A DNA stretch of 64,000 bases from Elsinoe ampelina. Taxonomy: Eukaryota. Positions within the stretch are counted from its first letter, which is position 1, and each line of letters starts with the position of its first letter. The DNA lies in contig ML992510.1 in NCBI GenBank assembly GCA_010093995.1, positions 1,119,339-1,183,338 on the forward strand, given 5' to 3'. The notes beneath the pieces were generated by a model. That model was not told where the DNA came from. It worked only from the letters and a program-made list of their open reading frames with translations, and made no database searches. This document shows positions 10,101-60,456 of this stretch, one piece after another. A program made the position numbers and the translations under genes.

Positions 10101-10888
10101 CCGACACCGCGCATGCCTCGGACGACATCCTTCTCACCGGCATCAAGCGCAACGAGATTCAAAAAGTCCTTCATGCCCTCGCCCTTCGCGCCAACCCCAA
10201 CGCCCAAGATCGCTCCCGCGGCACCCACGCGGTCTACCTCGCTCTCGCCGCCGCCGACCCCGCCCTACCAGGCTCCAGCCTCCCCAGCTCCTCTCCGAAC
10301 AGACCTAACTTCCCCACAACCCTCTCCCCACAACCGACCCACGCCCAGAACTCCCCCACCACCCCCGACCGACCCACCAGCCGCCCTCAAACTCCCCTCC
10401 GCAAACCCTTCCCCGTCGCAGAACTCCTCCTCCAAAACGGCGCCGACATCCCCACCGCCCCGTCTCCGTTCCCCCTCAGCCCCGCGGCGAGACAGTACCT
10501 CGACTACAAAGCCGAGTTGCGCAACGGCAAGCTCGGTCCCGGACAGATCGCCAGCGTGGGCACCTCCCCCGGCCGCGCAGCAGAGGTCGTGGACATCGTC
10601 CCTGTACCCCCACCGAAGGACGTGAGGGATACTCTCGACCCATCGCTCGGCATCGGCGGACGACCAATGACGTCAGGCGGCAGCATAAGGGCTGTTAGCG
10701 GGCTCGGCGTCACGGGCCTGGGAGGACAGGGGATCATGGGGGGATTGATGCGGGGGAATGATCGGGAAGGGAAGACGGAGGACGAGGGGGAGAGGAAGGA
10801 GAAGCCGACGGGGTTGAGGAAGCCGTGGAGTAATTCTGGGTTTGTGGGGGGCGTCAAGGCGTTGGGGGATGTGGGGAGGAGGTCGTAG
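7143..10888 (+). CDS. BAR-PH-ArfGAP protein (Csx2/Age1/centaurin-beta-like); introns near 7207-7254, 7389-7435 and 9255-9300
   Basis: MGNVSS start (possible myristoylation), DGPLFRA BAR entry, PH domain (RRFCFEV..W), ArfGAP zinc finger CADC..WVSINLG..CIECSGIHR. Confidence 0.9.
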
Positions 10889-11780
10889 GATGACTGTGTT
10901 TTTGAGGGGAGGGGGGTTGGGGGGTGGGATGGGGCGGGGGTTGAGGGTGGGGTGGGGAGGTGGCGGGGGAGGGAGAGGGGCCGGGATTTGAGAGAGAGGG
11001 AGAGGAGGAGGAGGGAAGGGCAAGGGGGATGGTGTAGGATATTGGGGAGTGGGAAGGGGGAGAGGCTGGTGGTGCTCTTGTCGAAGGGCTCGGCTTGGGT
11101 TTGAAGTGGGGTTTGCTTGTGAGATGGATGTATGCGATGGAAAGCCTGCTGGGCGGGTTCCCTTGGATATTAATGAAAGATTCTTCACGGCAATCTTCTG
11201 GGCTTATGTTTGTTTGCGCGGTGGTATGCAATCACGAACGGCAATGTGTTGGGTGTCACTCGCTGATGCCGTTGTGTTGTGTCGCGATCAAGCTGCGCGA
11301 GCCTCGCGGGTCAATCACGAGACGGGCCCCTGATTCGCACCGACAGCAACCGCGAGATACGCGCTCGAAATTGCGAAAGTGACGGACAGTCCTGGAGCGA
11401 GTGCGTTGTACTGCTCATGCTCGATCTTCTCCAGTCGGTGTAGGCTGTGTTTGTGCGATTGACCTTCGCGCGATTCGTCGTCACATTTTGATATCGTAAA
11501 TGCCGCGATTCAAAACATGCTCGTCCGAGCAGATGAGAAATGATCGTTGGGTAGTGTTCAAGAATTTTTTGATTCCGTAAAGCCATGCTGCCTGTATGCC
11601 TGCGCCAATTGGGGGCCTCCCTACTAGCATGGGTGTGCGAGTGTCTCCCTCCCCCATTTCCACTAGCTCTTTTGACCACATAACCGATCTTCCGGTGGAG
11701 TCATGGTCGTCCTTATCGCAGCCGCCATCCACAACCCCGTCGCCAACGCGTTCTCAAATCCTCCATCCGCTTCCCATCGC

Positions 11781-12151
11781 TTATCGCAGCCTCCTGGCCT
11801 CACGCTCGGACTCGAGCAGGCAGAGAATATCATCCTCCTTGACTGCGCATCGTTAGTCTCCCACACATCTCCCAAGTCGTGCGTCTTCCTACCAGGTCCC
11901 TTGACGTTACGGATGATGCTACGAGTGGTGTCGTCCATGAACTGGTATACTGTCAACTTCTTGCTCCCAAATGTCCAGGGAGATGCCATACCTCGACACG
12001 GACTTGTGAGACACCTCCACGCGAGCCTTGATGGGAGTTAGCTGATGTCCTTGGAGGGCTGGAGAAGTTTTCGAGGTGCAGTGGACGTACCGGTGCGGCC
12101 GAGGACACGGGTGACTTTGACGAGCTTGACGGGGACCTTGGCGGAATCCAT
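11781..12151 (-). CDS. RPS28: 40S ribosomal protein S28 (eS28); 4 exons
   Basis: Spliced product [68 protein letters not shown]. Confidence 0.97.
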
Positions 12152-12367
12152 GATGAGTGCGGAGTGGTTGTGAGTGGTGAGTGATTGTTTGGAGTGGGCG
12201 AGAAGTAAATGTCGTCGTCGGTAATCGTTTGCGCTGCAGTGGTATTCGTGAAGTCGACGGGGTCAGATTTTCAGCAGTGTGAAGCGGGATAGGCCGCGAT
12301 TTAGCCGAGCGGAATCTCGTCGTCGGACCCCGCCGCGATCGCAGACAAAAAGTTTCCCCACGTGTTG

Positions 12368-12418: not shown

Positions 12419-12553
12419 GAAATCTGGCATTGAATCCGGATCCTCGCTTTGACAGTCGCTACATACTCCACAGTCGCCTTTGGTCGCGAATAGGCTCTTT
12501 CCTGTATCATCAATACCGTCCTATCTCCCGATCTCTCTCTCACATCCACCACA

Positions 12554-13613
12554 ATGCACACCGTCCCAGGCGTGGACGTCGCGTCCCACCTCTCCGACCG
12601 CCTCCTCTTCGCCGTCCCTAAGAAAGGTCGACTGAACGAGCAATCTCTCCAACTCCTCGCCGGTTCCGACATCCAATTCCACCGACACAACCGCCTCGAC
12701 ATTGCCCTCGTCAAGAACCACCCGATTGCTCTGGTGTTCCTCCCTGCGGCCGACATCCCGACATTCGTAGGCAAGGGAAATGTAGATCTCGGTATCACAG
12801 GGCGGGACCAGGTCGCAGAGCACTACGACAAGCGGGACCGGACGAGGGATGCGCCTGGTGGTCGGAGACGGACGATGGATGGGTCGGTGGTGGAGGAGGG
12901 AGTGGAGGAGGTGATGGATTTGGGGTTCGGGAGGTGCAAGTTGCAGGTACAAGTGCCTGAGGCGAGTGGGATCAATGATCCGAAAGAGCTGGTGGGGAAG
13001 GATGTGGTGACGAGTTATACGAATCTGGTGGAGGAGTACTTCCAAGGACTGGAGGCAGAGGTGTATGGCAAGGAGGGTGTGAATGGGGACGGGAAGAGGC
13101 AGCTGAAGACGAGGATAGATTATGTCGGTGGTAGTGTCGAGGCGGCGTGTGCGATGGGTGTGGCGGACGGGATTGTGGATCTCGTGGAGTCAGGTGAGAC
13201 GATGAGGGCGTCCGGATTGAAGGCGATCAGCACCGTGTTTGAGAGCTCAGCGGTGTTGATTCGGAGTAAGCGGCCGAGTAACGTAGAGATGATTGATCTC
13301 ATCACGAGCCGGATAAGGGGTGTCATCAGTGAGTCTAGCAGATGGTATAAAGCGCGGGACATGCTGACCTTCTACAGCCGCACAAAGATACGTCCTTTGC
13401 ACATACAATGTCGAGCGATCAGTATTACCACAGGCTGTCAAGATAACGCCAGGTAAACGAGCACCCACCGTGACATCTCTTGAAGACGCCAACTGGGTCG
13501 CCGTACAGGCAATGGTGGAACGATCCAAAATGGCCATCATAATGGACCAGATCATGGACCTCGGCGGCACTGACATTCTCATCACAAAACTCGAGAACTC
13601 CCGAGCAACATAG
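12554..13613 (+). CDS. HIS1: ATP phosphoribosyltransferase; one intron near 13330-13377
   Basis: LLFAVPKKGRL, DLGITGRD, GSVEAAC..DGIVDLVESGETM; last exon contains TPGKRAPT. Confidence 0.97.
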
Positions 13614-13710
13614 ATAATCATAATATCATCAAAATATGTAGCATTATATACCCTGGCTTTGCGATTTACACAAGCCGTACATGCTCCATATCAGGCCGTC
13701 CCTTCGGTCA

Positions 13711-15194
13711 TCACACTAGACCCTTCTCCTCGCGAGCCTTCTCCTCTTCCCACTTCTTGAAATCGAATCCCAGCTCCTCCACGCTCTTGATAGTCCACCT
13801 CTCCTCGCCCAAATCGTGATAAGCCTTCTTTATAGCCGGAAAGCGCTCCCGTAGCCAGAACTCCTGCTCACCCCAGCGAGGCGGCTCCTTCCCCTTTCCT
13901 GGCTCGTCAGAGCTCATAGCCCAGTCGTGCATCATGTTAATGTACTCCGCATCCTTGGGAAACTTGAGAAGGTGGAAGTTTCGTCCAACCCCTGACTCCT
14001 CCTGTTGACGCTCCTCCCAGGCTTCCATCTCTGCTTCTGATGGGAGCGAGATGCGGTTGGACCATAGGCGGGCTATTACGGCTGCTTGGGCCTCGGCCAT
14101 AGGGAAGGGAATGACGCGCTGTTGGAGGACGGGCATAGCTAGTGTGGGGATGGGGCGGTAGAAGAGGTGCTGGTAGGTGTTGTCGACATGGGTGCCGTCG
14201 GTGATGAGTGGAGGGTCGACCTCGAGCCAGGGGAAGGAGTAGAAGTAGCCGGTGCAGAAGAGCAGGGCGTCGATGTCTCGTTCGACATGACCGTTCATGA
14301 AGGTGGCGGAGTGGTCGGAGGGATCGAGGTGTGCAATCTCGGGTAGATCCAGGCGGTGAGTTCCTGAGTCAGACAGTAAGAACGATTCTGAGCGAGTCGA
14401 TTGCAAGAGAGGCTGGGCGCAAGTAGTGATGATTTGTGTGGCGATGTCGACACCTGAAGCGCCATTACCTATCAGGAGGGTTTTCTGGTAGACGATTAGA
14501 TGTGGTCAGAGCGTCACGGATACACACGTACCTTGCCACGATAGTCTTCGGGAGTCTTATAGAACATGGAGTGAGAGATGCTGTCCGGATCTTGTGATCG
14601 CCACTTGTCCAATCCTTTGATGGCAGGTATGTGTGGGACATTGAAGTGTCCATTGCTGGCTATGATGGCATCGTAGTGGAATTGCTGACGTTGCTTGTCT
14701 GCATTTTCAGTCGTGATTTGCCACCCGGGTAATATATCATCGTCCGATGGCTGAGCTTTAATTATGCGAGTGCCAAATTTGATGAGATGCTGTACGTCCT
14801 TCGCATAGTGCTCGATATATTCCGTGACAGTCTCGTGACGAGGGAACAACGACGAGTTCTTCGGCCAGGGCAGATCGGAGAAGCCCATCAGCCCGCGGGG
14901 TATATTGGTCTCCAGACGATCGTATACCGGCGAGAGGAACGTGTCGGGTGATGCATTTTCATTTGGATCCTGGTCATGTCTGGTTTGCGGTATAGGATAG
15001 TCGGGTGAAACACGCTTGTGTGAAGATTTGTAGTCCCAAAGGCCGCCAATCTTAGCGCGTTGTTCAAAGATGTCTATTCGCTGAAAGGCGTTTTCCGCCA
15101 ACAGGTACTTGGCTGAGGCTATACCAGAGGGACCAGCGCCAACGATAGCTACAGAGGAGATATTTAATATCCTATTGCATGCTGACGGCATCAT
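13711..15194 (-). CDS. Flavin-dependent monooxygenase (FMO1-like); intron 14485-14531
   Basis: GAGPSG FAD motif, HSMFYK FMO signature, GNGASG NADPH motif, CTGY. Confidence 0.92.
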
Positions 15195-22600: not shown

Positions 22601-25153
22601 GAGAACCCCGAAGAATCGAGACGACCTTTGACTGCCCGGCAGTTGACCGCACCTGACAGCCCGAAGAGTCCAAGAGTCCATAAGAGCATGAATGACATCA
22701 GGCGGCAAGATCCTCAGAGTTCAGCCAACTCACCTGAGATGCAGAGTCAGCTGCGCGCAGTCATCTACGACAACACCACAGCAGCAGACGCACCCGTCAT
22801 GGGCGGTCTCACCGTTGCCAATTCGCCTTCTCCGCCACTTGATGATCCGGAAGAGAGGATGCCGAACACACCACTACCAGTCATCTCTGGCCCGAAGAAT
22901 GGCATGAAGATCGAGGATGCTGGTGTCTGGGGCAACAAACGAGGACCTAATGTGTTGACCAAGGAATACAAGGAAAAGGACCATTCCCGTGATCAGCAGA
23001 AAGACAAGGAGCGGAAGCGTAGTATCTTCGCTTTCAAGGGACGATCTTCGACCGAGTCTACTCCGCGGGAGAGCATGTCCCAGAAAGAGCAAGGGGAGTC
23101 GCCCGCTCCTCGCGCCGTCTTCGGTGCTCATCTGGCGGAGGCTGTCGAATTCGCAGCACCTACCGATGTGCCTGTCCGACTACCGGCTGTGGTCTACCGT
23201 TGCATTGAGTACCTCCGTGCGCATGACGCTATCCATGAAGAAGGCATTTTCCGAATGTCTGGTTCCAATTTGGTCATTCGCGGTCTCAAGGAGCGATTCA
23301 ACTCGGAAGGAGATGTGCATTTGCTTGCCGCTGGTGAGCAAATGTACGACATTCACGCTGTTGCAAGCTTACTCAAGCTGTACTTTCGTGAACTGCCCAG
23401 CACCATCTTGACTCGAGATCTGCATCTGGACTTTGTCTCTTGTTTGGATCTGGATGGTAAGACCAAAGTTGAGGCATTCAACATCTTGGTCAACAGACTT
23501 CCTGCGCCCAATCGGGAGCTTTTAGAGAACTTGACTGCTTTCCTGAGGGAGATTGTGGACAATGAGGCTACTAACAAGATGAATGTCAGGAATGTTGGGA
23601 TTGTCTTCTCGCCCACGCTTAACATTCCTGCTCCGCTCATCTCGCTCTTCGTCACTGACCATGGCAAGATCTTTGGCGCGCCGATTGATATTGCCAGTGT
23701 TGAGAGCAAGCTGCCACAGCTCTTGTCGAGCCAGCCTGGTTCTGCTAATGGCAGTCGATTGACGCTGAACACTGAGGAAGCACGGTCTGGCAAGATGCAC
23801 TTGTATCCTGGCCAGGTCACTCCTTCGTCGGATGCGTCATTCTTTTCGCAACTTAGTGGTGCAGACTACTCCACCGCCCAACGCATGTTCAAGGAGCAGT
23901 ATGATACGGCGTATACACCTCCACCCATGTCAGCTGGTATTCGTGGTCCGCCTCCGGCTCCGATCCACGTTGGAGGGGCAATGCAGCACGAGCTGTCTGC
24001 TCTTCCGCGCAAAATTTCCGAAGCTAGCGAGCCACCTCTGTCTCCAATAAGACTGGCGCACATTCATCCTTCATCCCAGCCTCACCATTCCTTCCACTCG
24101 ATGAAGTTCCCGGATCCACCCATGGCTACTAGTACTTCTTCGGTACCTCTCCCCACCCAACGAGGATCGACTTCGTCAAATGCTCTGACTTCATCACCAA
24201 AGTCTCAGCATACTGTGTCTTCACACTCTTCGACCTCGACTCTCACAAATGGACAACATCGCGAATCGCTTGCATCGAACTCGAATACATCTCGTTCGGC
24301 GAGCACCACTTCCGGATTTGGATCCGGATCTGCGTACTCGAAGAATCTACTCAGTAATCTTAATGATATTGCCATCTCCTCGTCACCCTTGATGGGTGGA
24401 ACATCGCCCGAGTTCAACCGATCGGGCTTCTCACCTCACAACTCCATTGGACCTGGCGCCATACCATCCAACGCCAACAATCCACACTTTGATCCTACCC
24501 AATCGGGCGGACGTCTGGAGTCGTCCCTGACTGCACCTCAAATCGGCACCACTCCTGGATCCAGTCCCTTGATGAATATGCAAACTTCCGCCTCTGGCCC
24601 TGCAGGCGGTCTCAACCCCTATAGTCCAAGTATGTATTCTGCCAAATCCGCCGGGTCAAGCGGGAGCGCCGGTACAATGGGCGGCTCGCACACACCCAAC
24701 CCTTATGCACCCAGCCACTTGAATCCGTACAGTCCCAACGCTCATGCTCACGCCGACACAAGCCGGAACGGCTCTTTGGGTAGCGGAGGCAGCCCCAAGA
24801 CTGCAGATCGCACAGGCAGCCTTGACCAACGAAGCGTGAGCGACACCCGAACCGGCGGTCTCAGCAAAGAACACCAAACTCAAGCAGACCGCACCGGCAG
24901 CTTGGGCAGTCTAGGCAGTAACAAGTCTGGCGGCAGCGGTAAAGAAGAGAAGGAAGGGTTCGGACGGAGGTTGTTGAGGAGGCAGAGTGGGAACTTTTTG
25001 GTCAAGGCCGGGTTCATCGATGCGGAGAAGAGCAAGGGGTTTGTGTCTGGTGGTGGGAGGGAGGGTGTGGCGAGTCCGAGGGATGTCAAAGGAGGATTGG
25101 GATTGGGGGTCAGTAGTCCAAGGACTACGGGGGGTTTTGGGAGGAGGGAGTGA
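19652..25153 (+). CDS. BEM3: PX-PH-RhoGAP protein, Bem3-like
   Basis: PX-like region, PH domain (GYLTKKGKNFGGW), RhoGAP domain (EEGIFRMSG, ASLLKLYFREL, NKMNVRNVGIVFSPTL). Confidence 0.85.
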   Translation: MSQLSPSRPRARSNVTVRIARTDDDSQIQRHNFYISADRSAQLKRVPSPLATTHIPYERHQYDQVTSAGRSPRSPYSPAPLTAGSSGSQNSSGTPPSPSRQKGSTGDKTFDSIKAAASRHAILERSREEAKSRARDERIQQMQARGMAGSASGPPLSTGDGTPSPRLQVMNSAPIQLQTDISTKRTASLDSTMSLSQSPSTAFQPPQMPPIEDPQAVDIPALIAAAGSPEAAIRKLLHEKHEAAKTNAQLWRLMNKQKGMMETLNKDLQKAVKDKDRYRRKLKEQLISSASVSTMPGSAIRSSIADERDDSQSPSLSEPPEDVMGLGRMPSIRSEGTDDNLNTPSYTVSSFSSQTPASSLVSPMYVKPMAAPFSDRNELRSPLRGPEMSQLKSPGLPEHRVPTGSPPALVTNDPMQQMHSPKELMREDSDILNRTPKVSQMQGKGGFSAAKDRTQSLARKGPPAPLDLSPQKASQMVDNSSSDYADSSGGSSNLERGRRKTRADDERDREVEMQEREEQDRIARREAEKLRLGRLERPPLERDISMGNMSITSEGYSSPEEPGSPHIAQVQTYQSLNALNAQLKTPQDLEFAAELKKSMAQHSVSSPGLPISPRPAERPGTAPNPTPRNPGNLISPRAPKQPIPVPPQTPLTTASPHLTRAETYPNHVKVEEPDTAATEMFDEDSITPLSNTLFSPAGPGPRTPGDIYKGFMTDQWPGLLLPPNALPSIYVRVDSSRLRPSRYSYMAPKTSQENPVFSLAIYARDDNAQLWRIEKTLLALTQLDAQLKSSSKFRMRLPDRALFQGHAPARIDARRSALGKYFDVMLDTPMDEQAASVVCAFLSSDAIGAEVKEYFQASHIPTGSSDSNEPVKPKPRKDGYLTKKGKNFGGWIARYFVCDGPTLKYFEAPGGAQLGAIKLQYASIGRQTAKSAQEELDEEHQFRHAFLVLEPKKRDKQNYVKHVLCAESDEERDAWVKCLMQYVENPEESRRPLTARQLTAPDSPKSPRVHKSMNDIRRQDPQSSANSPEMQSQLRAVIYDNTTAADAPVMGGLTVANSPSPPLDDPEERMPNTPLPVISGPKNGMKIEDAGVWGNKRGPNVLTKEYKEKDHSRDQQKDKERKRSIFAFKGRSSTESTPRESMSQKEQGESPAPRAVFGAHLAEAVEFAAPTDVPVRLPAVVYRCIEYLRAHDAIHEEGIFRMSGSNLVIRGLKERFNSEGDVHLLAAGEQMYDIHAVASLLKLYFRELPSTILTRDLHLDFVSCLDLDGKTKVEAFNILVNRLPAPNRELLENLTAFLREIVDNEATNKMNVRNVGIVFSPTLNIPAPLISLFVTDHGKIFGAPIDIASVESKLPQLLSSQPGSANGSRLTLNTEEARSGKMHLYPGQVTPSSDASFFSQLSGADYSTAQRMFKEQYDTAYTPPPMSAGIRGPPPAPIHVGGAMQHELSALPRKISEASEPPLSPIRLAHIHPSSQPHHSFHSMKFPDPPMATSTSSVPLPTQRGSTSSNALTSSPKSQHTVSSHSSTSTLTNGQHRESLASNSNTSRSASTTSGFGSGSAYSKNLLSNLNDIAISSSPLMGGTSPEFNRSGFSPHNSIGPGAIPSNANNPHFDPTQSGGRLESSLTAPQIGTTPGSSPLMNMQTSASGPAGGLNPYSPSMYSAKSAGSSGSAGTMGGSHTPNPYAPSHLNPYSPNAHAHADTSRNGSLGSGGSPKTADRTGSLDQRSVSDTRTGGLSKEHQTQADRTGSLGSLGSNKSGGSGKEEKEGFGRRLLRRQSGNFLVKAGFIDAEKSKGFVSGGGREGVASPRDVKGGLGLGVSSPRTTGGFGRRE

Positions 25154-25919
25154 TCTGGACCCGAGAGACGTATCGCATGAGGGAGGAACAAACAAGACAG
25201 GGGGAGAGGGGAAAGTCAAGCACTCATTTCTGGACTTTGAGTCTCGCTTTCACTCCTAACGGCCTATCGAATGGCGCAACACGGTACATTCTGTTCTTTC
25301 CGGGGGGTCTTTATTTCTGCACACGCATATAGCGCTTTCTTTCTGGGGATGTTGTTTGGCAGGAAGAAGCATAGCAGGGCAAACCGAGCTTTCACGATTG
25401 CTTGAGGGAATACATTGGAAGGGCACATTTGGCGGTTATGATTGGGAAGGGAGGATACATCGATACCCATTTCGCTCTTTGCTTTTTGTTCATGTGGTTG
25501 TTTATTTCGCTGAGATTCTAGTTGAGGTCGAGACAGGTGTTGAGAATGTCAGCTCGGGCAGGAGGCAGGGGAAAGGTAGTTGAGATGGCTCGACGAATTG
25601 TCCGTGTACTGTATGAATGAACATGACAATCTCGGTGAAGGTTGAGCTAGTGCTCGTGATGTTGTGATCTGACGTGTTGTTGATAAGGCACTCTTCGTGG
25701 CGAGCAGGAAGCCAATCAGCAAAGCTTGTGATCACCCAAGGACCTGTGCTCTGCATGTCTATATAAGCCGTTGGAGTGAGGTCCGGGTTTGATGTCAGCT
25801 TCGTGTACTCCGATACTTCTCTCCGGCCATTCTTTATCACACAATCTCTGTCAAGTTTAGGGTAGAATTGTTCGGGATCGTCTACTTGTAATATTCAGAC
25901 CAGACTGGCTGCAACAATC

Positions 25920-27689
25920 ATGCTTGACATCTACCAGTCCGTCTCTAAGTACCCCTATAACCTTGGCTCCCACTCCCGGAAAGTGACCACCCCAAACGCT
26001 GATGCGCAGACATGGTTCGACCGCGGACTTATCTGGCTCTTTGGATTCAACCTGGATGAAGCTGCAAGATGCTTCACGCAGGCAATCGCCTGCGATGATG
26101 CGTGTCCGATGGCACACTGGGGCCTGGCATACGCACTGGGTCCGCACTACAACTTTGGCTGGCTTTCACAGGGTGAGGCGGCGAGGACCGCGACGGTGCA
26201 GAAGACCTTTGCTGCTGCACAGCGTGCTCTCTCAGTAGCCAGTAAGACTTCCTATATCACTCCCGTGGAGAAGGCGTTGGTTCGCGCCATACAAGCTCGG
26301 TATCCGCAGCAGACGCCACCAACGACGCTGGAGGAGTTTGGCGAGTGGAATCGTGGATATGCGGATGCTATGGAAGGAGTCTACCGTGAGTTCCCGGACG
26401 ATCTCGATGTCGCTGCACTTTATGCCGATGCTATGATGACCTTGACGCCGTGGAGACTATGGGATGTATCGAATGGGACACCAACTCCTGGTGCAAGGAC
26501 ATTGCAGGCCAAGGTTGTATTGGAGAAAGCATTGGGATCTCCCGGCGCACATGACCATCCTGGTCTGCTGCATTTGTATATCCACCTGATGGAGATGTCT
26601 CCGAACCCAGAGCTCGCCATACCTTTCGCCAACCTCCTACGAGGTCTGACGCCCGACAGCGGTCATCTCCAGCACATGCCTTCTCACATCGACGTTTTGG
26701 TAGGCGCCTACGATCAAGCAGCCACAGCGAATCAAATCGCCGGGACAGTCGACGACGTCTACCTCGAACGCCGCGGCCTCAACAGCGTCTACACCACCTA
26801 CGTCCTCCACAACATCACCTCGCTCATCTTCGCCGCCATGATGGCCGGCAACTCCACCGCGGCCCTCCAAGGCTGCGACCGCCTCGAACACATCCTCACC
26901 GAAACCTTCCTCTCCACCAAAGAACCCCGCATGGCCGACTTTGCAGAATCCTTCCTCTCCACCCGGCCCCACGTCCTCATCCGCTTCGGCCGCTGGACCG
27001 ACATCCTCTCCCTCCCCATCCCCCACGACCCAATCCTCTACTGCGTCACCACCACCACGATCCACTACGCCAAAGCCATCGCCCACGCAGCCCTCGACCA
27101 CATCCCCCCGGCCGTCCACCACCAGCGCCTCTTCCTCTCCTCCCTCGCCACCGTCCCCGACTCCCGCCTCACCTACCCCAACAACTGCCGCAAAGTCCTC
27201 GCCGTCGGCCAAGTCATGCTCGACGGCGAACTCGCCTACCGAAAGGGGGAGTACGATCTCGCGTTCCGTCGGCTCCACGACGCCGTCGCCATCGAGGACG
27301 CGCTGGGCTACTCCGAGCCGCCTGCGTGGATGGTGCCGGCGCGTCACGCCGCGGCTGCGTTGTTGCTCGAGCGGGACCGTGTGAGGGAGGCGGCGCGGCT
27401 GTACGCTGATGATCTGGGCGTGGTGTTTGAGGGGGTGCAGCCGGCGTTGCCGCGCGCGAGGAGGCATCCGAGGAATATGTGGGCTTTGGCGGGGTATGGG
27501 GAGTGTTTGGAGAGGTTGGGGATGGAGGGGGAGAGGGGCGAGGTGGAGAGGGAGTTGGAACGGGCGAGGAGGGGGGCGGATGTCAGGGGGGAGGTGAGTT
27601 GTTTTTGTCGGACGGGGAAAAGGGCGGAGGGGAAGGAGAAGAAGGGGGTCACAGCGGAAGGGGTGGGGAGGACATTGGAGAAATTATGA
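25920..27689 (+). CDS. TPR-repeat protein of an uncharacterised family
   Basis: AQTWFDRGL..CPMAHWGLAYALGP, HPGLLHLYIHLME, GHLQHMPSHID and HPRNMWAL; 589-aa intronless ORF. Confidence 0.8.
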   Translation: MLDIYQSVSKYPYNLGSHSRKVTTPNADAQTWFDRGLIWLFGFNLDEAARCFTQAIACDDACPMAHWGLAYALGPHYNFGWLSQGEAARTATVQKTFAAAQRALSVASKTSYITPVEKALVRAIQARYPQQTPPTTLEEFGEWNRGYADAMEGVYREFPDDLDVAALYADAMMTLTPWRLWDVSNGTPTPGARTLQAKVVLEKALGSPGAHDHPGLLHLYIHLMEMSPNPELAIPFANLLRGLTPDSGHLQHMPSHIDVLVGAYDQAATANQIAGTVDDVYLERRGLNSVYTTYVLHNITSLIFAAMMAGNSTAALQGCDRLEHILTETFLSTKEPRMADFAESFLSTRPHVLIRFGRWTDILSLPIPHDPILYCVTTTTIHYAKAIAHAALDHIPPAVHHQRLFLSSLATVPDSRLTYPNNCRKVLAVGQVMLDGELAYRKGEYDLAFRRLHDAVAIEDALGYSEPPAWMVPARHAAAALLLERDRVREAARLYADDLGVVFEGVQPALPRARRHPRNMWALAGYGECLERLGMEGERGEVERELERARRGADVRGEVSCFCRTGKRAEGKEKKGVTAEGVGRTLEKL

Positions 27690-27851
27690 GGTCATGGTAC
27701 GATGTGATTATGAATTTGAACGCCTTTCGGTCCCACAGTCTGTGAGCTCACGGTGTCTGTCCCCTACGACTCTTGTCATGTTGTCCGCACAGCTCTCGCC
27801 GACGACCTCGTTCCCCGGTCCCCAATTCGTCTTCCTACGGAGGTAGCCTCA

Positions 27852-29417
27852 CTACTTCCCCATACTCCCCTCTCCCTTCTCCCCCCTCCCCCTCCCCTCC
27901 CCCATCTCCTCAATCCTCTCCACCGCCACCTCCGCGTTCCCCCTCCTCCCCACCCTCCTCCCCATCCCCTCCCACTCCTCCCTCCCCAACACCCTCTCCC
28001 ACGCCCCCTCCTCCCCCGCAAACCGGACCCAATCCCCTTCCTCCCCACCCAGACTCTCCACCATCACCCCAGCGTAACGCAGCCACTCCCCGCTCTCGAC
28101 CACGCACCACCCCTCCCCTTCATACGGTCCACATATCCTCTCCCCGTGAGCCAGGGCGCGGACGACTTTACTCGCGTGCCCGTCGTCTGGCCATGTCTTG
28201 ACTGCCTCGAATACCCCGTCCCACGTCCTGTGCTGCTTGAGAGGATGGTACACCTCCCTACTCACCGCCTCGGGATGGAGGGCGGGGCAGCGCATCCCCA
28301 TGTAGAGAAGGACCGCGTGACGGGCGTGCCATTCTAGGAGACGAAGCTTGTTGGTCTCCGCGAGCCAGGGGAAGGAGAGGAAACGAGGGAAGAAGAACGA
28401 GGCGTTGAGGAGGTGGATGAGGAAGAAGTCGAGTTTGGGGCGTTTGAGGAGGGAGGGGTGTTGGGATGTGAGGATTAGGTGGGTGAGGGTTGAGTATTGC
28501 TCTGCTAGGGCTTGGGGGAGGGATGAGAGGGGGGAGGGAGGGGAGACGGGGTTTGGAGGAGGGGAAGGGAAAGAAGGGTTGGGCGATGGAGAGGGGGGGG
28601 AGGAGAGGGTGTACTGGGAGGCAAGGGAGATGAGGGGCTCCCAGGCGTGGTCGAGGATGGAGTCGACGAGGTCGAGGGAGGTGGACTGTTGGGCTGCGTT
28701 GAGGAAGGTGGGGTTGGCGCGGGCGGCGTGGAGGAGTGGGAGTAGGGGCTGTGGTGTGGTGATGGTTGTGGCGCGCTGTTCGGTGGCGAGGAAGAAGGGG
28801 AGGAGAAAGGCGCTGTGAACAGCTGTCATGGCGAGGGCTTCGGCGACCAGAGGGAGAGATGAGGTTTCGAGGGCGAAACCGAGATGGAGGAGAGGATGGA
28901 TGACGCCGCCAAAGAAACGAGCGAGCATGTCATCTGCGAGTGGAGTGCGGGCGAAGAGGTACTTGTTGACTGTCTCAGGAATGCCATCTGCATGAAGAGT
29001 CTGGCGGAAGAAGGTGAGGTAGTCGGAGTAGTTTTCTTGCTTTCCAAGGCATGATTGGAATGTCTCTTCGTTGGACAGGTCCTCGATGATCTGATTGTGA
29101 ATGGGAAATCGATCGCGTTGGTAGCTGGAGTTGTTGTCGTAGGCGACTTGGATATCCTCGGGGGAGGCGCCAATAGCTAGCAGCGTGATCAAGTGGTGGA
29201 CAATGTGATTGTGGAAGCCTTTGTCGTTGAAGTAGATGTCTGTAGACCATTAACAAAGGAGTGAGAGGACGACTGAGATGCATGTACCATGCTCTTCGTG
29301 GTTCTGCGTGAGCAGACGTGAAGTCACTCGGACGGACTCGGAATTGATATTGGAAGCCGCAAAGATCAAATCGTTAGGGCTAGATATCTCCAGCTGGATA
29401 TCCGAAATGGTAGCCAT
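27852..29417 (-). CDS. Questin oxidase / AflY / HypA-family oxidoreductase; intron near 29240-29288
   Basis: GFHNHIVHH, HPLLHLGFALE, LDFFLIH and DDGHASKVVRAL motifs. Confidence 0.88.
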
Positions 29418-49251: not shown

Positions 49252-50087
49252 CTATGGAGTGGCCACAGCCACCCTGGCATAAGTAGCAGGCAACGGTTGC
49301 GTAGCCACAGGCTTCGCAGGATCCGCAGTGAAAGGCGGAAACGAGCCACCCTTGGGGTAGACTTCGATACCAGGCATAGTATAGTTGACCATTGGGGGCC
49401 AGTAAGGGTTGAAGAAGATACCAGGATCACGAGCATTGTCTGTTCATGTCAGCCCCATCCCACCCTTCTACCACGTCACTTACAAATCCCAGGAAACTTC
49501 CCCACCGGACTCGGCGTCCCTCCCGCGGCGCCCGAGACCTCGATCTGGGCACACCCAATATAAAACTGCGTCCCACCCACGGTCCCGGCACCATGAACAG
49601 CCACATGCTCCCCGCGCAACAAATACTGGCCATTGGGAATCTGACTCGGCACCTTGAAGGTATAATTCCTCCACCCATCCACCATCCAAGTCATACTCAC
49701 GCTATAATTCCCGAAAGTCCTGACACCCTGCTCGTAGACCTTGAACCAATCCCCATCACCCTGGTAGTTCCTCACGTCCGCCACCGTGGAGCGGGACATG
49801 TACGCGAACAACGGCCCCGGATGGCCGAGGACGTCGCGGATGGTGAAGCCGACCGTGTCGCCCGGTTTGACGGGGAAGACCTTTGTGCGGGAGGCGGAGG
49901 CGAAGGAGCCGTTGTTGCAGCGGATGTCAGGGTGGGAGACGTCGAGGAAGGGCGAGTTGGAGACGAGTTGCGGCAGTTGGCGGACGTATTCGTAGGGTTC
50001 GGTGGCGACGCCGTTGACGATTAGGCGTTCGAAGTTGTAGTGCGCGAGGGCGGGGGCCGCTAGGGCCAGGAGGGGGAGGAGGTGCAT
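49252..50087 (-). CDS. AA9 lytic polysaccharide monooxygenase; intron near 49440-49483
   Basis: Signal peptide followed by His1 (HYNF), then HPGP, GDWFKV, YLLRGEHVAVH and QFYIGCAQ. Confidence 0.95.
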
Positions 50088-51705
50088 GGTGAACGGAACG
50101 GAAAGGGGGGACGTAGCCGGTACGTCGGAGAAGTGAAAGGTGGTGGTGGTGGTCAGGGAAGGGGGGGGGAGAAGGGCTGATAGAAATGGGATATATAGAT
50201 TGCTTACGGATGGGATGCTTTCGATGCCATGACACGAGGAGATGCTATCAGGACTGTTTGCACAGTGGGGATGTATGTAACAGAAGGACGGCGTCAAGCA
50301 GGCGAGGTCGAAAAGAGTGTTTCGGAGCAAGTGGCCGTTTGCCCTGATTGGAGCGGAACCTTGTGACAAAAAACCTGGGGTAGAGAGATTCCGTCCAGTG
50401 GGCGACGGTCAAGGCCGCGGATGGCGTCAAAGCGAAATGAAAGTGTTACGGAGCGTCAGAGGAGATGGCCCGGTCGTCGCAGGAGTCGGCAGATTGGAGG
50501 GTGGTCTTGTGAGGTCCGCTGGGGTGTTGGCGGTGGGCGCTGGGCGTTTCAGTGGGGGGTGACCGGGTTGATAAAAGCAAAGGCTCGGTGGAAGATGCTC
50601 CGGGGAGGAATGAGGATGTACAAGTGCTTGGTGGCGTTGTGCTTGGAAGATGCAGGACGTGTTGGGTGACCTGGATGAGGTACAGGAGGATCTGTCGCCA
50701 AGCATATGCACTCGCCTCAACCAGTGTCCACCCTTGCAGCATACCAAGTCCGCCTCTCCTCTGTCACGCCGCGGTTGAGCCAGACCGAACCCGCCCGCTC
50801 GGCTCCTCCAAGGCATCATCATCCTGGCTGCTGCAGGTCCAGAAGGATTCACTTTCCCGACCTCCCTCCCGCTCTCCGACCTCCGTCCTCTGCCCTTGCG
50901 ATACAAGTCCGTCATACCGAACACAAAGCACTGTGATGTCCTCTAGACCCACCTCTCCATCTGCAGATCCGGACTCTGACCCCTGTCGCGCACAAAATGA
51001 CAGGCGAGGTGCAGCGCGAGAGTCCTTCAACGGCCGGGACAGCTCAACGGTGGTCAACGGTGGTCAACGGTAGACGCGCATAGGAGACGTCCTCTCGTGC
51101 CTGGCCTGCATGCAAGAAACGAAATGGCAGGACGAGGAGGTCCCTGTCTCTGATGCGCCTTTCTGTGTGGTTGTGTAGGATGTGAATCAGGAACAGCCGG
51201 TGGTCATGCACTGAGTATAGTCTTGGTGAGACATGGCTTGCTCGCTATCGAAGAAAAATGTCAGGTTTGTGTCACCACTATTTGCAGGAGAGAAATCACG
51301 CCACAAGGAGGAAACTGAGTGTTCTGGATCCTGTCTGTATTCTGGAACCTGTCCATTGTTTGATGCATGGGGATGCAAGGAATAGCTATGTACATTGAAG
51401 CTTTGAATGTGGGTACATGAAGTGAAATTTGTTTGACAAAGGAACATATGCTGTCCTGCCTGATCCCTTCCTATCCTGCCATGATGTGTACATGATCCCT
51501 GATGTGAATGCCGGAAACTCGTCCGCAATGTCGCTGGAACGCTGAAGCTGTATTTTGAGTTCGGGGTTGATCCAACCCGCTGTAAATGCCAGATGTCGAT
51601 AGCATGAAGGCGGTCTAGCCGTAGCCGCTGTAGTCGTGGTGGTATCAAGGTGTCGTGGTGAGTCGTCATAATTGTCGCTAAAGCACAAAGGAACATGATC
51701 AAGCA

Positions 51706-57823: not shown

Positions 57824-58542
57824 ATGAACGCGCCAGACAGGTACGTCCCCTCCTCCTCTCCTTCCACATCCTTTCTCCATCGACCGAAAAATCCACATCT
57901 CCAAGCGCACACGAACCATGCCTTCACCAAGCAAGCGCACCGCCACACCTTCTCCCCGCAAGAAGACAGGCCACCGTGTAGGCGCAGACTACTTCAGCTT
58001 CGGCTTCGTTAGTAGCGCAGCCCGCGAATCAGCACAAATCACAAACTACCTCCCCCTCTCGAACAAATGCCCACGTATCGAGCACGGGTGTCAAGAAATG
58101 GGCGCTAACGACGATGAAAGGCACGAGTTGTTCCTACTAGGGGAAGGAGAGAAGAAGGTTACGTTCCAGACGGAGACGAGTAGGTCGCCCTTTGCACAAC
58201 CCACGTCTGAATAGGGTCAGGAAGAGGATCAGTAGCTGACACATGACAGGAGTACCCAACGCCACGCTCTTCACTTTCCGCAAAGAAGACCACACCCTCG
58301 CCAACCTCCTCCGAGCCCGTCTGCTCACATCTCCGAAAGTCCTCTTCGCAGCATACAAGGTTCCACATCCTCTGTTCGCAAATTTTGAACTGCGAGTGCA
58401 GACGGACGGGAGCATCAGCCCCAAAGACGCGGTGGTGCAGGCTTGCGCGGATATTGTGCAGGATCTGCAACGACTGGATCAGAACTTTGATACCGAGTGG
58501 GAGATCAAGAAGATTGCGCTGGGCGAGGGAGGGGGGATATAA
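57824..58542 (+). CDS. RPB11: RNA polymerase II subunit RPB11; introns 57841-58120 and 58180-58249
   Basis: Spliced MNAPDRHELFLLGEGEKK..KEDHTLANLL..AYKVPHPL..LRVQTDG. Confidence 0.96.
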
Positions 58543-59214
58543 TTCTGCTTTGAGGACGGCCGGACGAGGGTGTGTCAACGATATGAGGGGCGGGTAACAG
58601 GCAAGCTTGGTTGGTTGAGAAGGCAGCTACGAGGGCGTCCAGGTTTGGGCGGGCAGGAGGACTTGGGCGTGAGAGAGCAAGAAGAGATGGTGGGAGCATC
58701 CAGCTTGGGCGGTCAGCAGGGCATTGGGCGGCGTTTTTGGAGGGCGAGGCAAAAGTTACAACAGGAGACTATGAGATATGATACCCATCCAGAGGACCAC
58801 CAAGAATGAGAGCACCATTACAAGAAACTTATCGGCTGCATCGGAGCAGTCTACTCTCTCCATCACTTCCTTTGTCACGCCTGTCTTTCGTGAGAATCTG
58901 CAAGCCTCCATGGACCAACAGGGTCAAAAACATAATCTGAAAAATCGTGATAGTACTATTATCCCTCCCATCCCAGGGCTCAATCACTACATACATTTTT
59001 CCCGCCGCAAAGAACATCATCAACAACAACCCAAAAGGCATTGCGGTGCGGTATCTGCCTTTATTTTCTCCTCCACTCCCACCAACCCAAACGCCCTGTC
59101 CATTGCGGTACGTAAAACATCACTATCCATCCCCATCATTGATCCCCTTTGTCCTGCCCACTACTAAAGAATAGCAGAGTATTTACATCTCCCCTCATCC
59201 CACCCTCGCCTCAC

Positions 59215-60456
59215 CTACCGACCTCCATGGCCCTGCTGTCCCTGTCCCTGCCCTTGCCCTCCCATCGCCGGGTTCCCATGACTCTCGAACAAGTCCTCCA
59301 AATACGCGCTGGGCGCCCTGCTACCGGGTAGATCTTCACCATGCCCCGTCCCGACCTGCAGACTACTCGCGCTCGCCTGCGGGTTCAAGTGCCCGCCATA
59401 GCCAACGTTACTGTTCGGTCGTGCGATGCTGGTGCGTTGCCCCTCGCGACTGGGTGGTGCGAGCTGCATGTTGCTCATTGGACGGTTGAGGGAGGTGCGG
59501 CGGGCTTGGAGCGAGGGGGAGCCCTGGCCTGTGCCGCCGATGGTGGTTTGGCTGTTGCCGGAGCCGAGTTGGGAGGAGGGTGAGGCGTAGTAGCCTGCCG
59601 GGAGGAAGGTGGAGGAGCGGTTGTTGGCCGGGGCGAGGCCGGTCATGGGGATGTTGGTGGTGGCGTTGGAGGCGGTGGGGGAGAAGAAGAGGCCGCTGCC
59701 GTTGGAGGGTGGGATGGGGTTGCGGGAGGCGCGGTTAGTGTGGCGGTCGGATTTGTCGTTGAGGTCGAGGGTGGAGCCGCCTGGTGCTTGGTGGTAGAAA
59801 CCGCCCGCGGGTTTGAAGGGGTTGGATGCCCAGCCGCCGGGGTTCTTGGTCTCGGAAGCCATGATGGAGGCCATGGCGGCGCGTTTGACGGAGCGGTTGA
59901 TGGACCAGGCTACGAGGGCGCGCCAGGCGATTACGCAGAAGCCAAGGAAGGCGAGAACAGCACCGACCGCAATGAACACGGTGCCTTCTGGAAGGGAGGA
60001 CTTTTGCATGAAGGGTGCGTTGGCGGTGAAAGGAACAACCATGGTTGGGATACCGACACCTTGAAGAGTTGGCGCGCCAGAGAGACGGTTGGCGGCCGAG
60101 GGAGCAATTGCGGAGCCTCCGGATGTGGTGGTCACCACCCCGGTAGGGAAGAGGTTCGTGGTTGATCCTGTGGCAGAGCCGGAAGTCACTGATGCAGATG
60201 CAGACGCAGAAGCACTCCCGCTCCTCGTTCCACTGGCCGTCTGCGTGGGCTGGTTGTTGCCAGTCTGCGATGCGGTATTTCCTCCTCGAGTGTTGGTATT
60301 CTGGTTGTTGTTATTGCCATCTGTTGTCGTCTGTGCCTGAGATTCATTCGCATCTGATATTTGACTGAGGTTCGGAAGTTGTGCGCTGGCGAAGGACGAA
60401 AGGCAGAGAACGAGCAGGCATGCTAGAAGCAGCCGTATTTGCGATCGTTGCTTCAT
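59215..60456 (-). CDS. Type I membrane protein, Csi2-like
   Basis: Signal peptide, S/T-rich ectodomain, PFM..LPEGTVFIAVG transmembrane segment, LFFSPT, and RAPSAYLEDLF tail. Confidence 0.65.
   Translation of the reverse strand: MKQRSQIRLLLACLLVLCLSSFASAQLPNLSQISDANESQAQTTTDGNNNNQNTNTRGGNTASQTGNNQPTQTASGTRSGSASASASASVTSGSATGSTTNLFPTGVVTTTSGGSAIAPSAANRLSGAPTLQGVGIPTMVVPFTANAPFMQKSSLPEGTVFIAVGAVLAFLGFCVIAWRALVAWSINRSVKRAAMASIMASETKNPGGWASNPFKPAGGFYHQAPGGSTLDLNDKSDRHTNRASRNPIPPSNGSGLFFSPTASNATTNIPMTGLAPANNRSSTFLPAGYYASPSSQLGSGNSQTTIGGTGQGSPSLQARRTSLNRPMSNMQLAPPSREGQRTSIARPNSNVGYGGHLNPQASASSLQVGTGHGEDLPGSRAPSAYLEDLFESHGNPAMGGQGQGQGQQGHGGR

What the first reader, a model, noticed from the sequence alone, without database searches (positions are those of the whole stretch)
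10130..59960. Recurrent C-rich to G-rich strand-switch islands with fixed polarity, independent of gene orientation
Seen: about ten islands of 0.5-1.3 kb in which the + strand is first very C-rich, then abruptly G-rich. Approximate switch points: 10.6k (ArfGAP, +), 12.8k (HIS1, +), 14.0k (FMO, -), 24.9k (BEM3, +), 27.3k (TPR, +), 28.3k (questin oxidase, -), 37.63k (TERT, +), 49.8k (AA9, -), 58.4k (RPB11, +), 59.45k (CSI2-like, -). The pattern is its own reverse complement, so ordinary codon bias or transcription-strand bias cannot explain it, and it extends into UTRs (10890-11060). Known: C-to-G is the polarity of GC skew at bacterial replication origins. Inference: these may mark fixed sites of a bidirectional strand-asymmetric process (origins, or break/repair hotspots), or selected G4/R-loop/fold-back structures. 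I know of no named element that matches.
Basis: partly seen in the sequence, partly recalled or inferred. Interest (0 to 1): 0.75.

Follow-up and report, generated by a model that had tools for sequence, protein, structure and literature searches.

The report
Gene-anchored C-then-G skew blocks
In this grapevine-anthracnose fungus, kilobase blocks inside genes are written almost without G and then almost without C on the coding strand; they follow genes rather than replication origins, and they are an extreme, still unexplained form of a known fungal strand bias.

Summary
The islands are real. All 10 listed switch points are recovered, and there are 11 C-to-G and 9 G-to-C flips against 0.29 and 0.11 in shuffles. 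The window is Elsinoe ampelina. The skew is strongest at silent sites: 4-fold sites reach 75% C in one arm and 67% G in the other. It lies inside conserved domains (TERT, HisG), runs into UTRs and sits in spliced RNA contigs.

The polarity is not fixed. Six true G-to-C sign changes exist, including the sharpest flip in the window, and all six lie between genes. Nine of 10 C-to-G sign changes lie inside genes. Ten of 26 genes are strongly G-rich on the coding strand around their stop codon (2.4 expected).

This is therefore a gene-anchored pattern: a block-like form of the gene-end GC skew of McLean and Tirosh (2011). It is not an origin map. Tests for fold-back pairing and for G-quadruplex motifs beyond composition were negative.

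New here: the mid-gene TERT island keeps its position and polarity in four Elsinoe species and is absent from the three nearest relatives. The cause is open; I favour a transcription-linked strand bias.

This scan reported the same pattern at least ten times on other pieces of this genome.

The parts
10054..11185 (+). ArfGAP gene island. Sense C arm 10054-10483, mixed centre, sense G arm 10706-11185. The G arm runs 297 nt past the stop at 10888.
   Evidence: Third codon position (p3): C 0.67 / G 0.08, then G 0.70 / C 0.11. The 3'UTR part has skew +0.74.
12475..13279 (+). HIS1 (HisG) island, anchored at the 5' end. The C arm 12475-12724 starts 79 nt before the ATG at 12554. The G arm 12823-13279 lies inside the HisG domain and ends 334 nt before the stop at 13613.
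13639..14393 (-). FMO-like gene island. On the + strand it is C-rich at 13639-13855 (the sense G arm, which spans the stop at 13711) and G-rich at 14089-14393 (the sense C arm).
   Evidence: Sense p3: C 0.62, then G 0.52.
24230..25183 (+). BEM3-like RhoGAP gene, weak island. There is a p3 C bias over 24230-24948. The G arm 24949-25183 ends 30 nt past the stop at 25153.
   Evidence: The left arm is only -0.16 at w=300.
26777..27706 (+). TPR-family gene island. C arm 26777-27218 and G arm 27412-27706. The G arm ends 17 nt past the stop at 27689.
   Evidence: p3: C 0.84, then G 0.74. An RNA contig runs unbroken over 25808-27483.
27707..27787 (.). G-to-C junction between the convergent TPR and questin-oxidase genes. 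This is the sharpest flip in the window.
   Evidence: jump of -1.37 at 27760, between the stops at 27689 and 27852.
27788..28969 (-). Questin-oxidase gene island. On the + strand it is C-rich at 27788-28168 (the sense G arm, ending 64 nt past the stop at 27852) and G-rich at 28337-28969 (the sense C arm, inside the Pfam domain).
   Evidence: RNA contigs cover 28035-29239.
37078..38388 (+). TERT mid-gene island. The C arm 37078-37576 covers the telomerase RNA-binding domain. The G arm 37698-38388 leads into the RT domain. The switch at 37638 is 1773 nt from the start (35865) and 1843 nt from the stop (39481).
   Evidence: Conserved in four Elsinoe species. An RNA contig runs over 36295-37838.
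49603..50288 (-). AA9 gene island, on the 5' side. On the + strand it is C-rich at 49603-49751 (the sense G arm) and G-rich at 49873-50288 (the sense C arm, which starts about 198 nt or more upstream of the ATG near 50090).
   Evidence: The 3' end of the gene model is uncertain.
58491..58741 (+). RPB11 terminal G-rich segment. The switch lies near 58429, and the domain ORF is 58240-58539.
   Evidence: Weak: skew at the stop is +0.26.
58988..59837 (-). On the + strand it is C-rich at 58988-59307 (the sense G arm, 227 nt past the stop at 59215) and G-rich at 59485-59837 (the sense C arm).
   Evidence: Sense p3: C 0.81. The gene name was not verified (no Pfam hit).

Best explanation
The islands are a property of transcription units in Elsinoe, not of chromosome landmarks. 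On the coding strand, a block of about 150-630 bp is driven towards C and away from G. After a GC-rich mixed centre of 100-230 bp comes a block of about 150-690 bp driven towards G and away from C. This G block usually ends just past the stop codon.

Shown:
- The force acts on DNA or RNA letters, not on protein.
- It is gene-anchored.
- It has persisted at the same site since the Elsinoe ancestor.
- It is strong enough to change conserved proteins.
- Its size corresponds to a roughly 7-fold shift in odds per site.

Inferred:
- It is the extreme, block-like form of the gene-end GC skew known from yeasts.
- It is most likely produced by a strand-asymmetric mutation, repair or conversion bias coupled to transcription.
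- The G arm would act as a terminal, R-loop-prone zone for the sense transcript. The C arm would be the mirror zone for antisense or read-through transcripts.
- The bias may reinforce itself.

I put about 0.85 on the gene-anchored classification and about 0.4 on the transcription/R-loop mechanism.
For: Silent sites:
- 4-fold sites: neutral A .22 C .31 G .215 T .25 (2788 sites); sense C arms C .753 (627 sites); sense G arms G .669 (362 sites).
- The shift in odds is 6.7-fold in C arms and 7.4-fold in G arms.
- Two-fold codons: G-ending Q/K/E codons are 63% in neutral sequence, 35% in C arms and 89% in G arms. C-ending F/Y/H/N/D/C codons are 62%, 92% and 27%. The complementary letter is therefore also avoided.

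Location: the skew lies inside Pfam domains, in UTRs and in unspliced stretches of spliced RNA contigs.

Gene anchoring:
- 10 of 26 genes have sense skew of at least +0.3 in [stop-200, stop+100], against 2.36 expected (P 0.0002).
- 11 of 38 skewed segments end 17-297 nt past a co-oriented stop.
- 9 of 10 C-to-G sign changes lie inside CDS spans, against 0 of 6 G-to-C sign changes.
- Mean 5' sense skew is -0.116 (P 0.002).

The state is derived. The TPR protein differs from the consensus of 26 homologues at 24% of neutral columns, with a net change in G minus C at codon positions 1-2 of -0.3. In the C arm the figures are 40% and -12.0; in the G arm, 32% and +12.0.

Persistence: the TERT arms are present in 4 of 4 Elsinoe/Sphaceloma TERTs. 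Mean G minus C at codon positions 1-2, per codon, is -0.29 to -0.33 in the C arm and +0.40 to +0.42 in the G arm, against -0.02 and +0.03 in 19 outgroups. The arms are absent in 3 of 3 nearest non-Elsinoe proteins. At columns where E. ampelina and E. australis differ, both still lean the local way (G arm +0.65 and +0.56, against +0.04).

Precedent: McLean and Tirosh describe a C-biased 5' end and a G-biased 3' end that affect 4-fold sites, amino acids and UTRs. Ginno et al. describe terminal G skew with R-loops in human genes (passages).
Against: - The strongest island (TERT) is in the middle of its gene, about 1.8 kb from either end.
- The HIS1 and AA9 blocks sit at the 5' side, and HIS1 has skew -0.15 at its stop.
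- Sixteen of 26 genes lack a strong terminal G block, including the whole first 10 kb.
- The published pattern is weak and gradual. Here the blocks are on or off, with edges under about 100 nt. Nothing I tested explains this.
- No stranded RNA, R-loop or polymorphism data were available, so the link to transcription rests on position alone.
- Many gene models are approximate (ORFs plus Pfam), especially AA9, the unnamed genes and the start codons.
- The HIS1 C arm shows no C-ward amino-acid shift (+0.3 over 10 changes).
- TERT amino-acid divergence between E. ampelina and E. batatas is no higher in the arms (30/397) than in the flanks (34/383; P 0.52). This argues against local hypermutation but does not separate mutation bias from fixation bias.
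- No sequence-context signature of a known mutator was seen.
Confidence: 0.5

Rival explanations
1. Selected function. The bipartite block is maintained by selection as a transcription-termination or insulation element. The G-rich terminal zone would promote R-loop-assisted termination in a very compact genome. The C-rich zone upstream would stop hybrids from spreading into the gene body, or would terminate incoming antisense transcription.
For: - The position is held for the whole history of the genus, with parallel change in both lineages.
- The force needed is about ln 2 per site, like codon-usage selection.
- G arms end 17-297 nt past stops.
- Human genes with terminal G skew are closely spaced and form 3' R-loops.
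- Stops of convergent neighbours here are only 98-163 nt apart.
Against: - The TERT island is mid-gene, where termination would be harmful.
- Sixteen of 26 genes, in equally compact surroundings, lack a strong terminal G block.
- G-runs and G4 motifs are no more frequent than composition gives (19 against 17.4 +/- 3.2).
- The cost to conserved proteins looks high.
Confidence: 0.2
2. Recombination hotspots. Recurrent double-strand breaks occur at the switch point, and strand-specific repair of heteroduplex or resected DNA favours C on the strand that runs 5' to 3' towards the break. This would be a skewed form of biased gene conversion.
For: - There is mirror symmetry about a centre.
- Arm lengths of 0.15-0.7 kb resemble resection and conversion tracts (my own knowledge, not a call).
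- GC3 rises to about 0.75-0.82 in the arms and stays high in the centres.
- A population-scaled bias of about 2 would be enough.
Against: - It is not plain weak-to-strong conversion. In C arms, G-ending Q/K/E codons fall from 63% to 35%.
- Centres lie inside coding sequence in all 8 strong islands, not in promoters or intergenic gaps.
- The outer edges are sharp rather than decaying.
- Simple deamination of the resected 3' tail predicts the opposite polarity (inference).
Confidence: 0.1
3. Replication origins. The C-to-G switch marks bidirectional origins, as GC skew does in bacteria.
For: Only the polarity fits: G-rich to the right and C-rich to the left of the centre.
Against: - There are at least ten islands in 50 kb, some only 1 kb apart (27.3k and 28.3k).
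- The skew lasts at most 0.7 kb per side.
- Flips of opposite polarity lie between genes (6 of 6), and C-to-G flips lie within genes (9 of 10).
- G arms stop at gene ends.
Confidence: 0.02
4. Selected fold-back (RNA or DNA hairpin between the C arm and the G arm) or selected G-quadruplexes.
For: - Composition alone gives very stable predicted folds (-0.35 to -0.48 kcal per nt).
- Short words shared between the C arm and the reverse complement of the G arm exceed the shuffles in some islands: TERT 10-mers 15 against 5.0 +/- 3.3; the CSI2-like gene 8-mers 18 against 6.1 +/- 3.2; HIS1 7-mers 34 against 19.3 +/- 6.2.
Against: - Folding energy is no better than with each arm shuffled in 60-nt blocks in 8 of 8 islands (z from -1.14 to +1.84, 12 shuffles each).
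- The word excess fits low-complexity runs rather than pairing in register.
- G4 motifs number 19 against 17.4 +/- 3.2, and G runs of 4 or more are slightly depleted (z -2.6).
Confidence: 0.03
5. Protein composition. The islands are merely disordered regions that are first proline-rich and then glycine-rich.
For: Amino-acid use does shift. Between C arms and G arms, P goes from 9.9% to 2.6%, G from 3.6% to 16.4% and E from 2.5% to 11.4%.
Against: - The skew is strongest at 4-fold sites.
- It lies in conserved domains.
- It continues in UTRs.
- The one true composition effect in the window is the poly-Thr region 31386-32444, which looks different: it is A-rich and has no G partner.
Confidence: 0.01

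Closest known systems
[quoted passage not shown]
   Same: - The coding strand is C-biased early and G-biased late.
- 4-fold sites are affected.
- Amino-acid use changes.
- The skew extends into promoters and 3'UTRs.
- The cause is unexplained.
   Different: - There it is an average, gradual, weak trend in yeasts. Only 7.5-33% of genes were individually significant in the three model species, and the effect was similar at degenerate and non-degenerate sites.
- Here the blocks are on or off, with edges under about 100 nt and third-position purity up to 0.84.
- The C arm usually abuts the G arm near the 3' end rather than sitting at the 5' end.
- One island is mid-gene.
- The host is a filamentous Dothideomycete.
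Terminal GC skew and 3' R-loops of human genes (Ginno et al. 2013, PMC3787257; abstract and passages)
   Same: A co-oriented G-rich block on the non-template strand at the 3' end of a subset of closely spaced genes, including convergent pairs.
   Different: - No C-rich partner block is described there.
- There the skew is mostly non-coding; here it rewrites codons.
- R-loops are not shown here.
Transcription-associated strand asymmetry in mammals and bacteria
   Same: A strand bias tied to the direction of transcription, thought to come from different damage and repair of the two strands.
   Different: Known cases are uniform along a gene and small. Here the sign flips within the gene and the size is extreme.
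GC-skew switch at bacterial replication origins (established knowledge)
   Same: C-to-G polarity on the reference strand.
   Different: - The scale differs: megabases there, under 0.7 kb here.
- The bacterial switch is independent of genes.
- Here, flips of the opposite sign sit in every suitable intergenic gap.
GC-biased gene conversion hotspots (recalled)
   Same: Local rise of GC at silent sites, with a population-scaled strength of about 2.
   Different: - Biased gene conversion is symmetric between strands and always favours G and C over A and T.
- Here one of G or C is disfavoured relative to A and T at two-fold sites.

Membership tests
Fungal gene-end GC skew (McLean and Tirosh 2011) | The coding strand is G-biased at the 3' end of genes and into the 3'UTR. 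| tested here: met
   10 of 26 genes have skew of at least +0.3 around the stop, against 2.36 expected (P 0.0002). Mean skew is +0.20. The UTR parts have skews of +0.53 to +0.74.
Fungal gene-end GC skew (McLean and Tirosh 2011) | The coding strand is C-biased at the 5' end and promoter. | tested here: met
   Mean sense skew in [start-200, start+200] is -0.116 (P 0.002). Only 3 of 26 genes are at or below -0.3 (P 0.29). Start codons are approximate.
Fungal gene-end GC skew (McLean and Tirosh 2011) | Present at fourfold-degenerate sites, and changes amino-acid usage. | tested here: met
Fungal gene-end GC skew (McLean and Tirosh 2011) | A gradual gradient of modest size, with intermediate skew in the gene middle. 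| tested here: not met
   The blocks have edges under about 100 nt and p3 purity of 0.6-0.84. The C arm abuts the G arm. The TERT island is mid-gene.
Terminal GC skew / R-loop termination zones (Ginno et al. 2013) | A co-oriented G-skew block overlapping the transcript end. | tested here: met
   11 segments end 17-297 nt past a co-oriented stop. True poly(A) sites are not known.
Terminal GC skew / R-loop termination zones (Ginno et al. 2013) | RNA:DNA hybrids form there. | not testable with these tools
   No DRIP data are available.
Replication-origin skew switch | Switch points independent of genes, with the skew extending over the replicon arms. | tested here: not met
   9 of 10 C-to-G sign changes lie inside CDS spans and 0 of 6 G-to-C sign changes do. 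Arms are at most 691 bp.
GC-biased gene conversion hotspot | Weak-to-strong bias at all silent sites, symmetric between strands. | tested here: not met
   G-ending Q/K/E codons fall from 63% to 35% in C arms. C-ending two-fold codons fall from 62% to 27% in G arms.
Inverted repeat / fold-back element | The arms are complementary in register, beyond what composition gives. | tested here: not met
   MFE z scores range from -1.14 to +1.84 against arm-wise shuffles in 8 of 8 islands. There is some excess of short shared words in 3 islands.
G-quadruplex element | G4 motifs enriched over composition. | tested here: not met
   19 observed against 17.4 +/- 3.2 in phase-preserving shuffles across 16 arms.

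The most novel reading that the evidence does not exclude
Elsinoe has evolved, or lost the restraint on, a strand-directed process that writes C on one strand and G on the other, outward from fixed intragenic centres. Examples would be self-reinforcing paired R-loop domains, or a strand-specific repair or conversion system. On this reading the process is switched on only at certain sites and held there for the whole history of the genus. It is strong enough to recode telomerase and histidine-biosynthesis enzymes. The islands would then be a readable genomic record of where the process acts.
Probability: 0.2. Interest if true: 0.8.

Novelty: new variant of a known kind. Interest (0 to 1): 0.5.

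Why it matters
The cause of gene-end GC skew in fungi has been open since 2011, because the signal in yeasts is a weak average. In Elsinoe the same kind of signal is nearly saturated, has sharp edges, is either present or absent gene by gene, and is conserved in place across species. Individual loci can therefore be tested directly with strand-specific R-loop mapping, stranded nascent RNA, polymorphism spectra and allele swaps.

There is also a practical side. These blocks distort codon usage, protein composition, ORF calling (all six frames stay open) and tests of selection in this plant pathogen.

Tried and rejected
- Whole genome: none is held for this window, so no genome-wide metagene analysis was possible.
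- Sequencing runs: no RNA holder is listed. The laid runs are contigs, so strand, transcript ends and expression level cannot be read. Bins without cover (30.7-32.7 kb, and parts of TERT in X2, X3 and X6) say nothing.
- Strain or species differences: I hoped the runs would show some, but almost none fell in the arms, so no polymorphism spectrum could be made.
- Fold-back pairing and G4 enrichment: negative.
- Neighbour-base context at 4-fold sites: no motif. C3 is 0.71-0.83 and G3 is 0.65-0.77 for most contexts, with one low value of 0.40 at n=40.
- HIS1 amino-acid polarisation: weak. The G arm is +9.0 over 21 changes and the C arm +0.3 over 10. Most changes are shared by descent, also with Dothideomycetidae sp. 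11243, so they do not date the island.
- A/T asymmetry as an independent deamination signature: dropped. It is seen at p3 overall but is nearly absent at 4-fold sites, so it follows from two-fold codon choice. The C-rich 5' flanks are T-rich, not A-rich.
- Co-occurrence of terminal G blocks in both partners of convergent pairs: 1-2 of 6 pairs by the values, so no signal.
- Literature: 'Elsinoe' with 'GC skew' gave 1 irrelevant paper. 'Elsinoe ampelina', 'genome' and 'codon' gave nothing on skew in the 12 listed; the one paper opened mentions only a small tRNA set. Two broader searches found no description in filamentous fungi. brought up Ginno et al.

Full report
**What is there**

The window has GC 0.534 and no net skew. 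Nine appear at w=300 with a jump of at least 0.6: 10655, 12800, 14038, 24912, 27302, 28272, 37638, 49786 and 59417. The 58.4k switch appears at w=200 (58429).

A segmentation at |skew| > 0.3 gives 38 skewed segments, and none lies in the first 10 kb. Eight C-then-G pairs are separated by less than 250 bp, and these islands measure 686-1311 bp. Shuffling within 1-kb blocks gives 0.29 C-to-G and 0.11 G-to-C flips per replicate, against 11 and 9 observed.

**Identity of the DNA**

The HIS1 product is 100% identical to a protein named by NCBI as Elsinoe ampelina. Pfam confirms ArfGAP, HisG, FMO-like, RhoGAP+PH, questin oxidase, TERT (RNA-binding domain plus RT), AA9 and RPB11. The TPR gene has TPR-family homologues. 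The name 'CSI2-like' was not verified.

**It is a nucleotide-level effect**

In the reading frame, third positions go from C 0.61-0.84 with G at most 0.13 to G 0.47-0.74 with C 0.05-0.22. Pooled 4-fold sites:

| Class | Sites | A | C | G | T |
|---|---|---|---|---|---|
| Neutral | 2788 | .22 | .31 | .215 | .25 |
| Sense C arms | 627 | .089 | .753 | .072 | .086 |
| Sense G arms | 362 | .091 | .124 | .669 | .116 |

At codons where only a purine can end the codon (Q/K/E), G-ending falls from 63% to 35% in C arms. At codons where only a pyrimidine can (F/Y/H/N/D/C), C-ending falls from 62% to 27% in G arms. Each arm therefore both favours one letter and avoids its complement. That is not what GC-biased conversion does.

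The arms lie inside conserved domains: the TERT RNA-binding domain, HisG and questin oxidase. They continue into UTRs: the ArfGAP 3'UTR has skew +0.74, the 3'UTR of the CSI2-like gene +0.53, and the 5' flanks of HIS1 and AA9 have -0.50 and -0.56.

Third-position strings show on/off blocks with edges under about 100 nt, and a mixed but still GC-rich centre. The shift in odds is 6.7- to 7.4-fold per site (ln about 2). A modest but persistent bias is enough.

**The islands are in mature RNA**

Contigs of four public runs skip eight short GT..AG or CT..AC intervals, so they look like spliced RNA. They run unbroken through:
- the TPR C arm and part of its G arm (25808-27483);
- the whole TERT C arm (36295-37838);
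- the questin-oxidase arms (28035-29239);
- the BEM3 end (to 25451).

These are contigs, so they give no strand, no transcript ends and no expression levels.

**The polarity is a gene coordinate, not a chromosome one**

A C-then-G pattern is its own reverse complement, so orientation independence carries no information. Read in the sense direction, every island is C then G.

Using 26 gene spans (ORFs, Pfam, RNA joints and two tblastn mappings; several are approximate):
- 10 of 26 genes have sense skew of at least +0.3 in [stop-200, stop+100], against 2.36 under circular shifts (P 0.0002);
- 11 of the 38 skewed segments end 17-297 nt past a co-oriented stop;
- of the flips that are true sign changes, 9 of 10 C-to-G lie inside CDS spans and 0 of 6 G-to-C do (Fisher P 0.0009);
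- the sharpest flip in the window (27760, -1.37) is the meeting point of two convergent genes whose stops are 163 nt apart.

That criterion is largely met. What is fixed is the order within a gene.

**Exceptions**

- HIS1 and AA9 carry their block at the 5' side.
- The largest island sits in the middle of TERT. The switch at 37638 is 1773 nt from the start and 1843 nt from the stop.
- Sixteen of 26 genes have no strong terminal block.

**Derived and persistent**

Against 26 homologues, the TPR protein compares as follows (Fisher 49/200 against 81/219, P 0.006):

| Region | Differs from consensus (% of columns) | Net change, G minus C at codon positions 1-2 |
|---|---|---|
| Neutral part | 24% | -0.3 |
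| C arm | 40% | -12.0 |
| Centre | 36% | -1.3 |
| G arm | 32% | +12.0 |

For TERT, I aligned the window's exon with E. batatas (92% identity), E. australis (65%), Sphaceloma murrayae (63%) and 20 other Dothideomycete proteins. All four Elsinoe-lineage proteins share the same profile in 30-codon bins. The onset is near 37100, the sign change near 37650 and the end near 38350. Mean G minus C at codon positions 1-2, per codon, is -0.29 to -0.33 in the C arm and +0.40 to +0.42 in the G arm. The outgroups give -0.02 and +0.03.

The three nearest non-Elsinoe proteins lack the island: sp. NU457, Dothideomycetidae sp. 11243 and the unnamed P0245 (-0.01 to -0.08 in the C arm, +0.07 to +0.09 in the G arm). 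At the 68 G-arm and 59 C-arm columns where E. ampelina and E. australis differ from each other, both still lean the local way (+0.65 and +0.56 against +0.04; -0.34 and -0.26 against +0.09).

The pressure has therefore kept acting at the same place in separate lineages.

Two further results limit the picture:
- Amino-acid divergence between E. ampelina and E. batatas is not raised in the arms (30/397 against 34/383), so local hypermutation is unlikely.
- HIS1 gives only weak support. The G arm is +9.0, the C arm is +0.3, and the changes are largely shared with sp. 11243.

**Structures**

With each arm shuffled in 60-nt blocks, predicted folding energy is unchanged in all 8 islands (z from -1.14 to +1.84, 12 shuffles each). 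Short words shared between the C arm and the reverse complement of the G arm are in excess in three islands (TERT, the CSI2-like gene and HIS1). I attribute this to low-complexity runs.

G4 motifs number 19 against 17.4 +/- 3.2, and G runs of 4 or more are slightly fewer than expected (z -2.6). No neighbour-base context stands out.

**What it is like**

McLean and Tirosh (2011; abstract and the first two of four parts read) describe in most unicellular fungi a coding strand that is C-biased at 5' ends and G-biased at 3' ends. The bias is present at 4-fold sites, changes amino-acid use and extends into promoters and UTRs. They give two untested explanations: stage-specific mutation regimes of RNA polymerase II, or C-avoidance.

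Ginno et al. (2013; abstract and passages) describe terminal G skew with 3' R-loops in closely spaced human genes.

The Elsinoe pattern meets the defining features of the first paper but not its gradual, weak character. I found no description of it in the searched library. Earlier agents of this scan reached the same classification on at least ten other pieces of this genome. Their notes gave me the lead to the paper, which I then checked myself.

**Mechanism**

The following are shown:
- a letter-level directional force;
- anchoring to genes;
- persistence since the Elsinoe ancestor;
- moderate strength.

The following is inferred. A strand-asymmetric mutation, repair or conversion bias is coupled to transcription. 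The G arm is a terminal R-loop-prone zone for the sense transcript. The C arm is its mirror for antisense or read-through transcription. Self-reinforcement would account for the on/off blocks.

I put about 0.4 on this mechanism, and about 0.85 on the pattern being gene-anchored rather than origin- or hotspot-anchored. The mid-gene TERT island is the main unexplained fact.

Noticed in passing
window 31386-32444 (ORF 30951-32831, +): A 1-kb C+A-rich stretch (skew -0.57, AT skew +0.40). It is a poly-threonine, mucin-like repeat region with several tandem-repeat arrays. This is an ordinary amino-acid effect, not one of the skew islands.
   Followed up: yes
window 62165-62705: A block with GC near 0.70, made of tandem repeats with periods of 87, 105 and 192 bp. 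ORFs are open on both strands. Its nature is unknown.
   Followed up: no
window 25920-27689: Among the best 120 hits of the TPR-family gene there is no other Elsinoe protein. It is 49-60% identical to proteins of Aspergillus and Trichoderma and also of Streptomyces. This patchy distribution could reflect an old transfer.
   Followed up: no
window 37638 versus TERT CDS 35865-39481: The TERT skew switch lies within 35 nt of the midpoint of the coding span (37673). This may be coincidence.
   Followed up: partly
window 37474 to 38052: One RNA contig of run X3 joins the TERT C arm to its G arm. It skips 577 nt, the ends are non-canonical, and only 21 letters lie on the short side. It is probably an assembly or reverse-transcription artefact between compositionally complementary arms.
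   Followed up: no
window 33981-34034: A cluster of substitutions and small insertions between the window and the RNA contigs of all four runs. It lies between two genes with high contig depth.
   Followed up: no
window 11666-12037 (-): A weak ribosomal protein S28e match (E 0.0025, below the Pfam cut-off). It lies inside the small C-to-G unit at 11.7-12.3 kb, which I otherwise counted as lying between genes.
   Followed up: partly
literature, PMC8826637: A passage lists Elsinoe ampelina among 11 fungi with fewer than 30 tRNA anticodons. This could interact with the unusual codon use in the arms.
   Followed up: no
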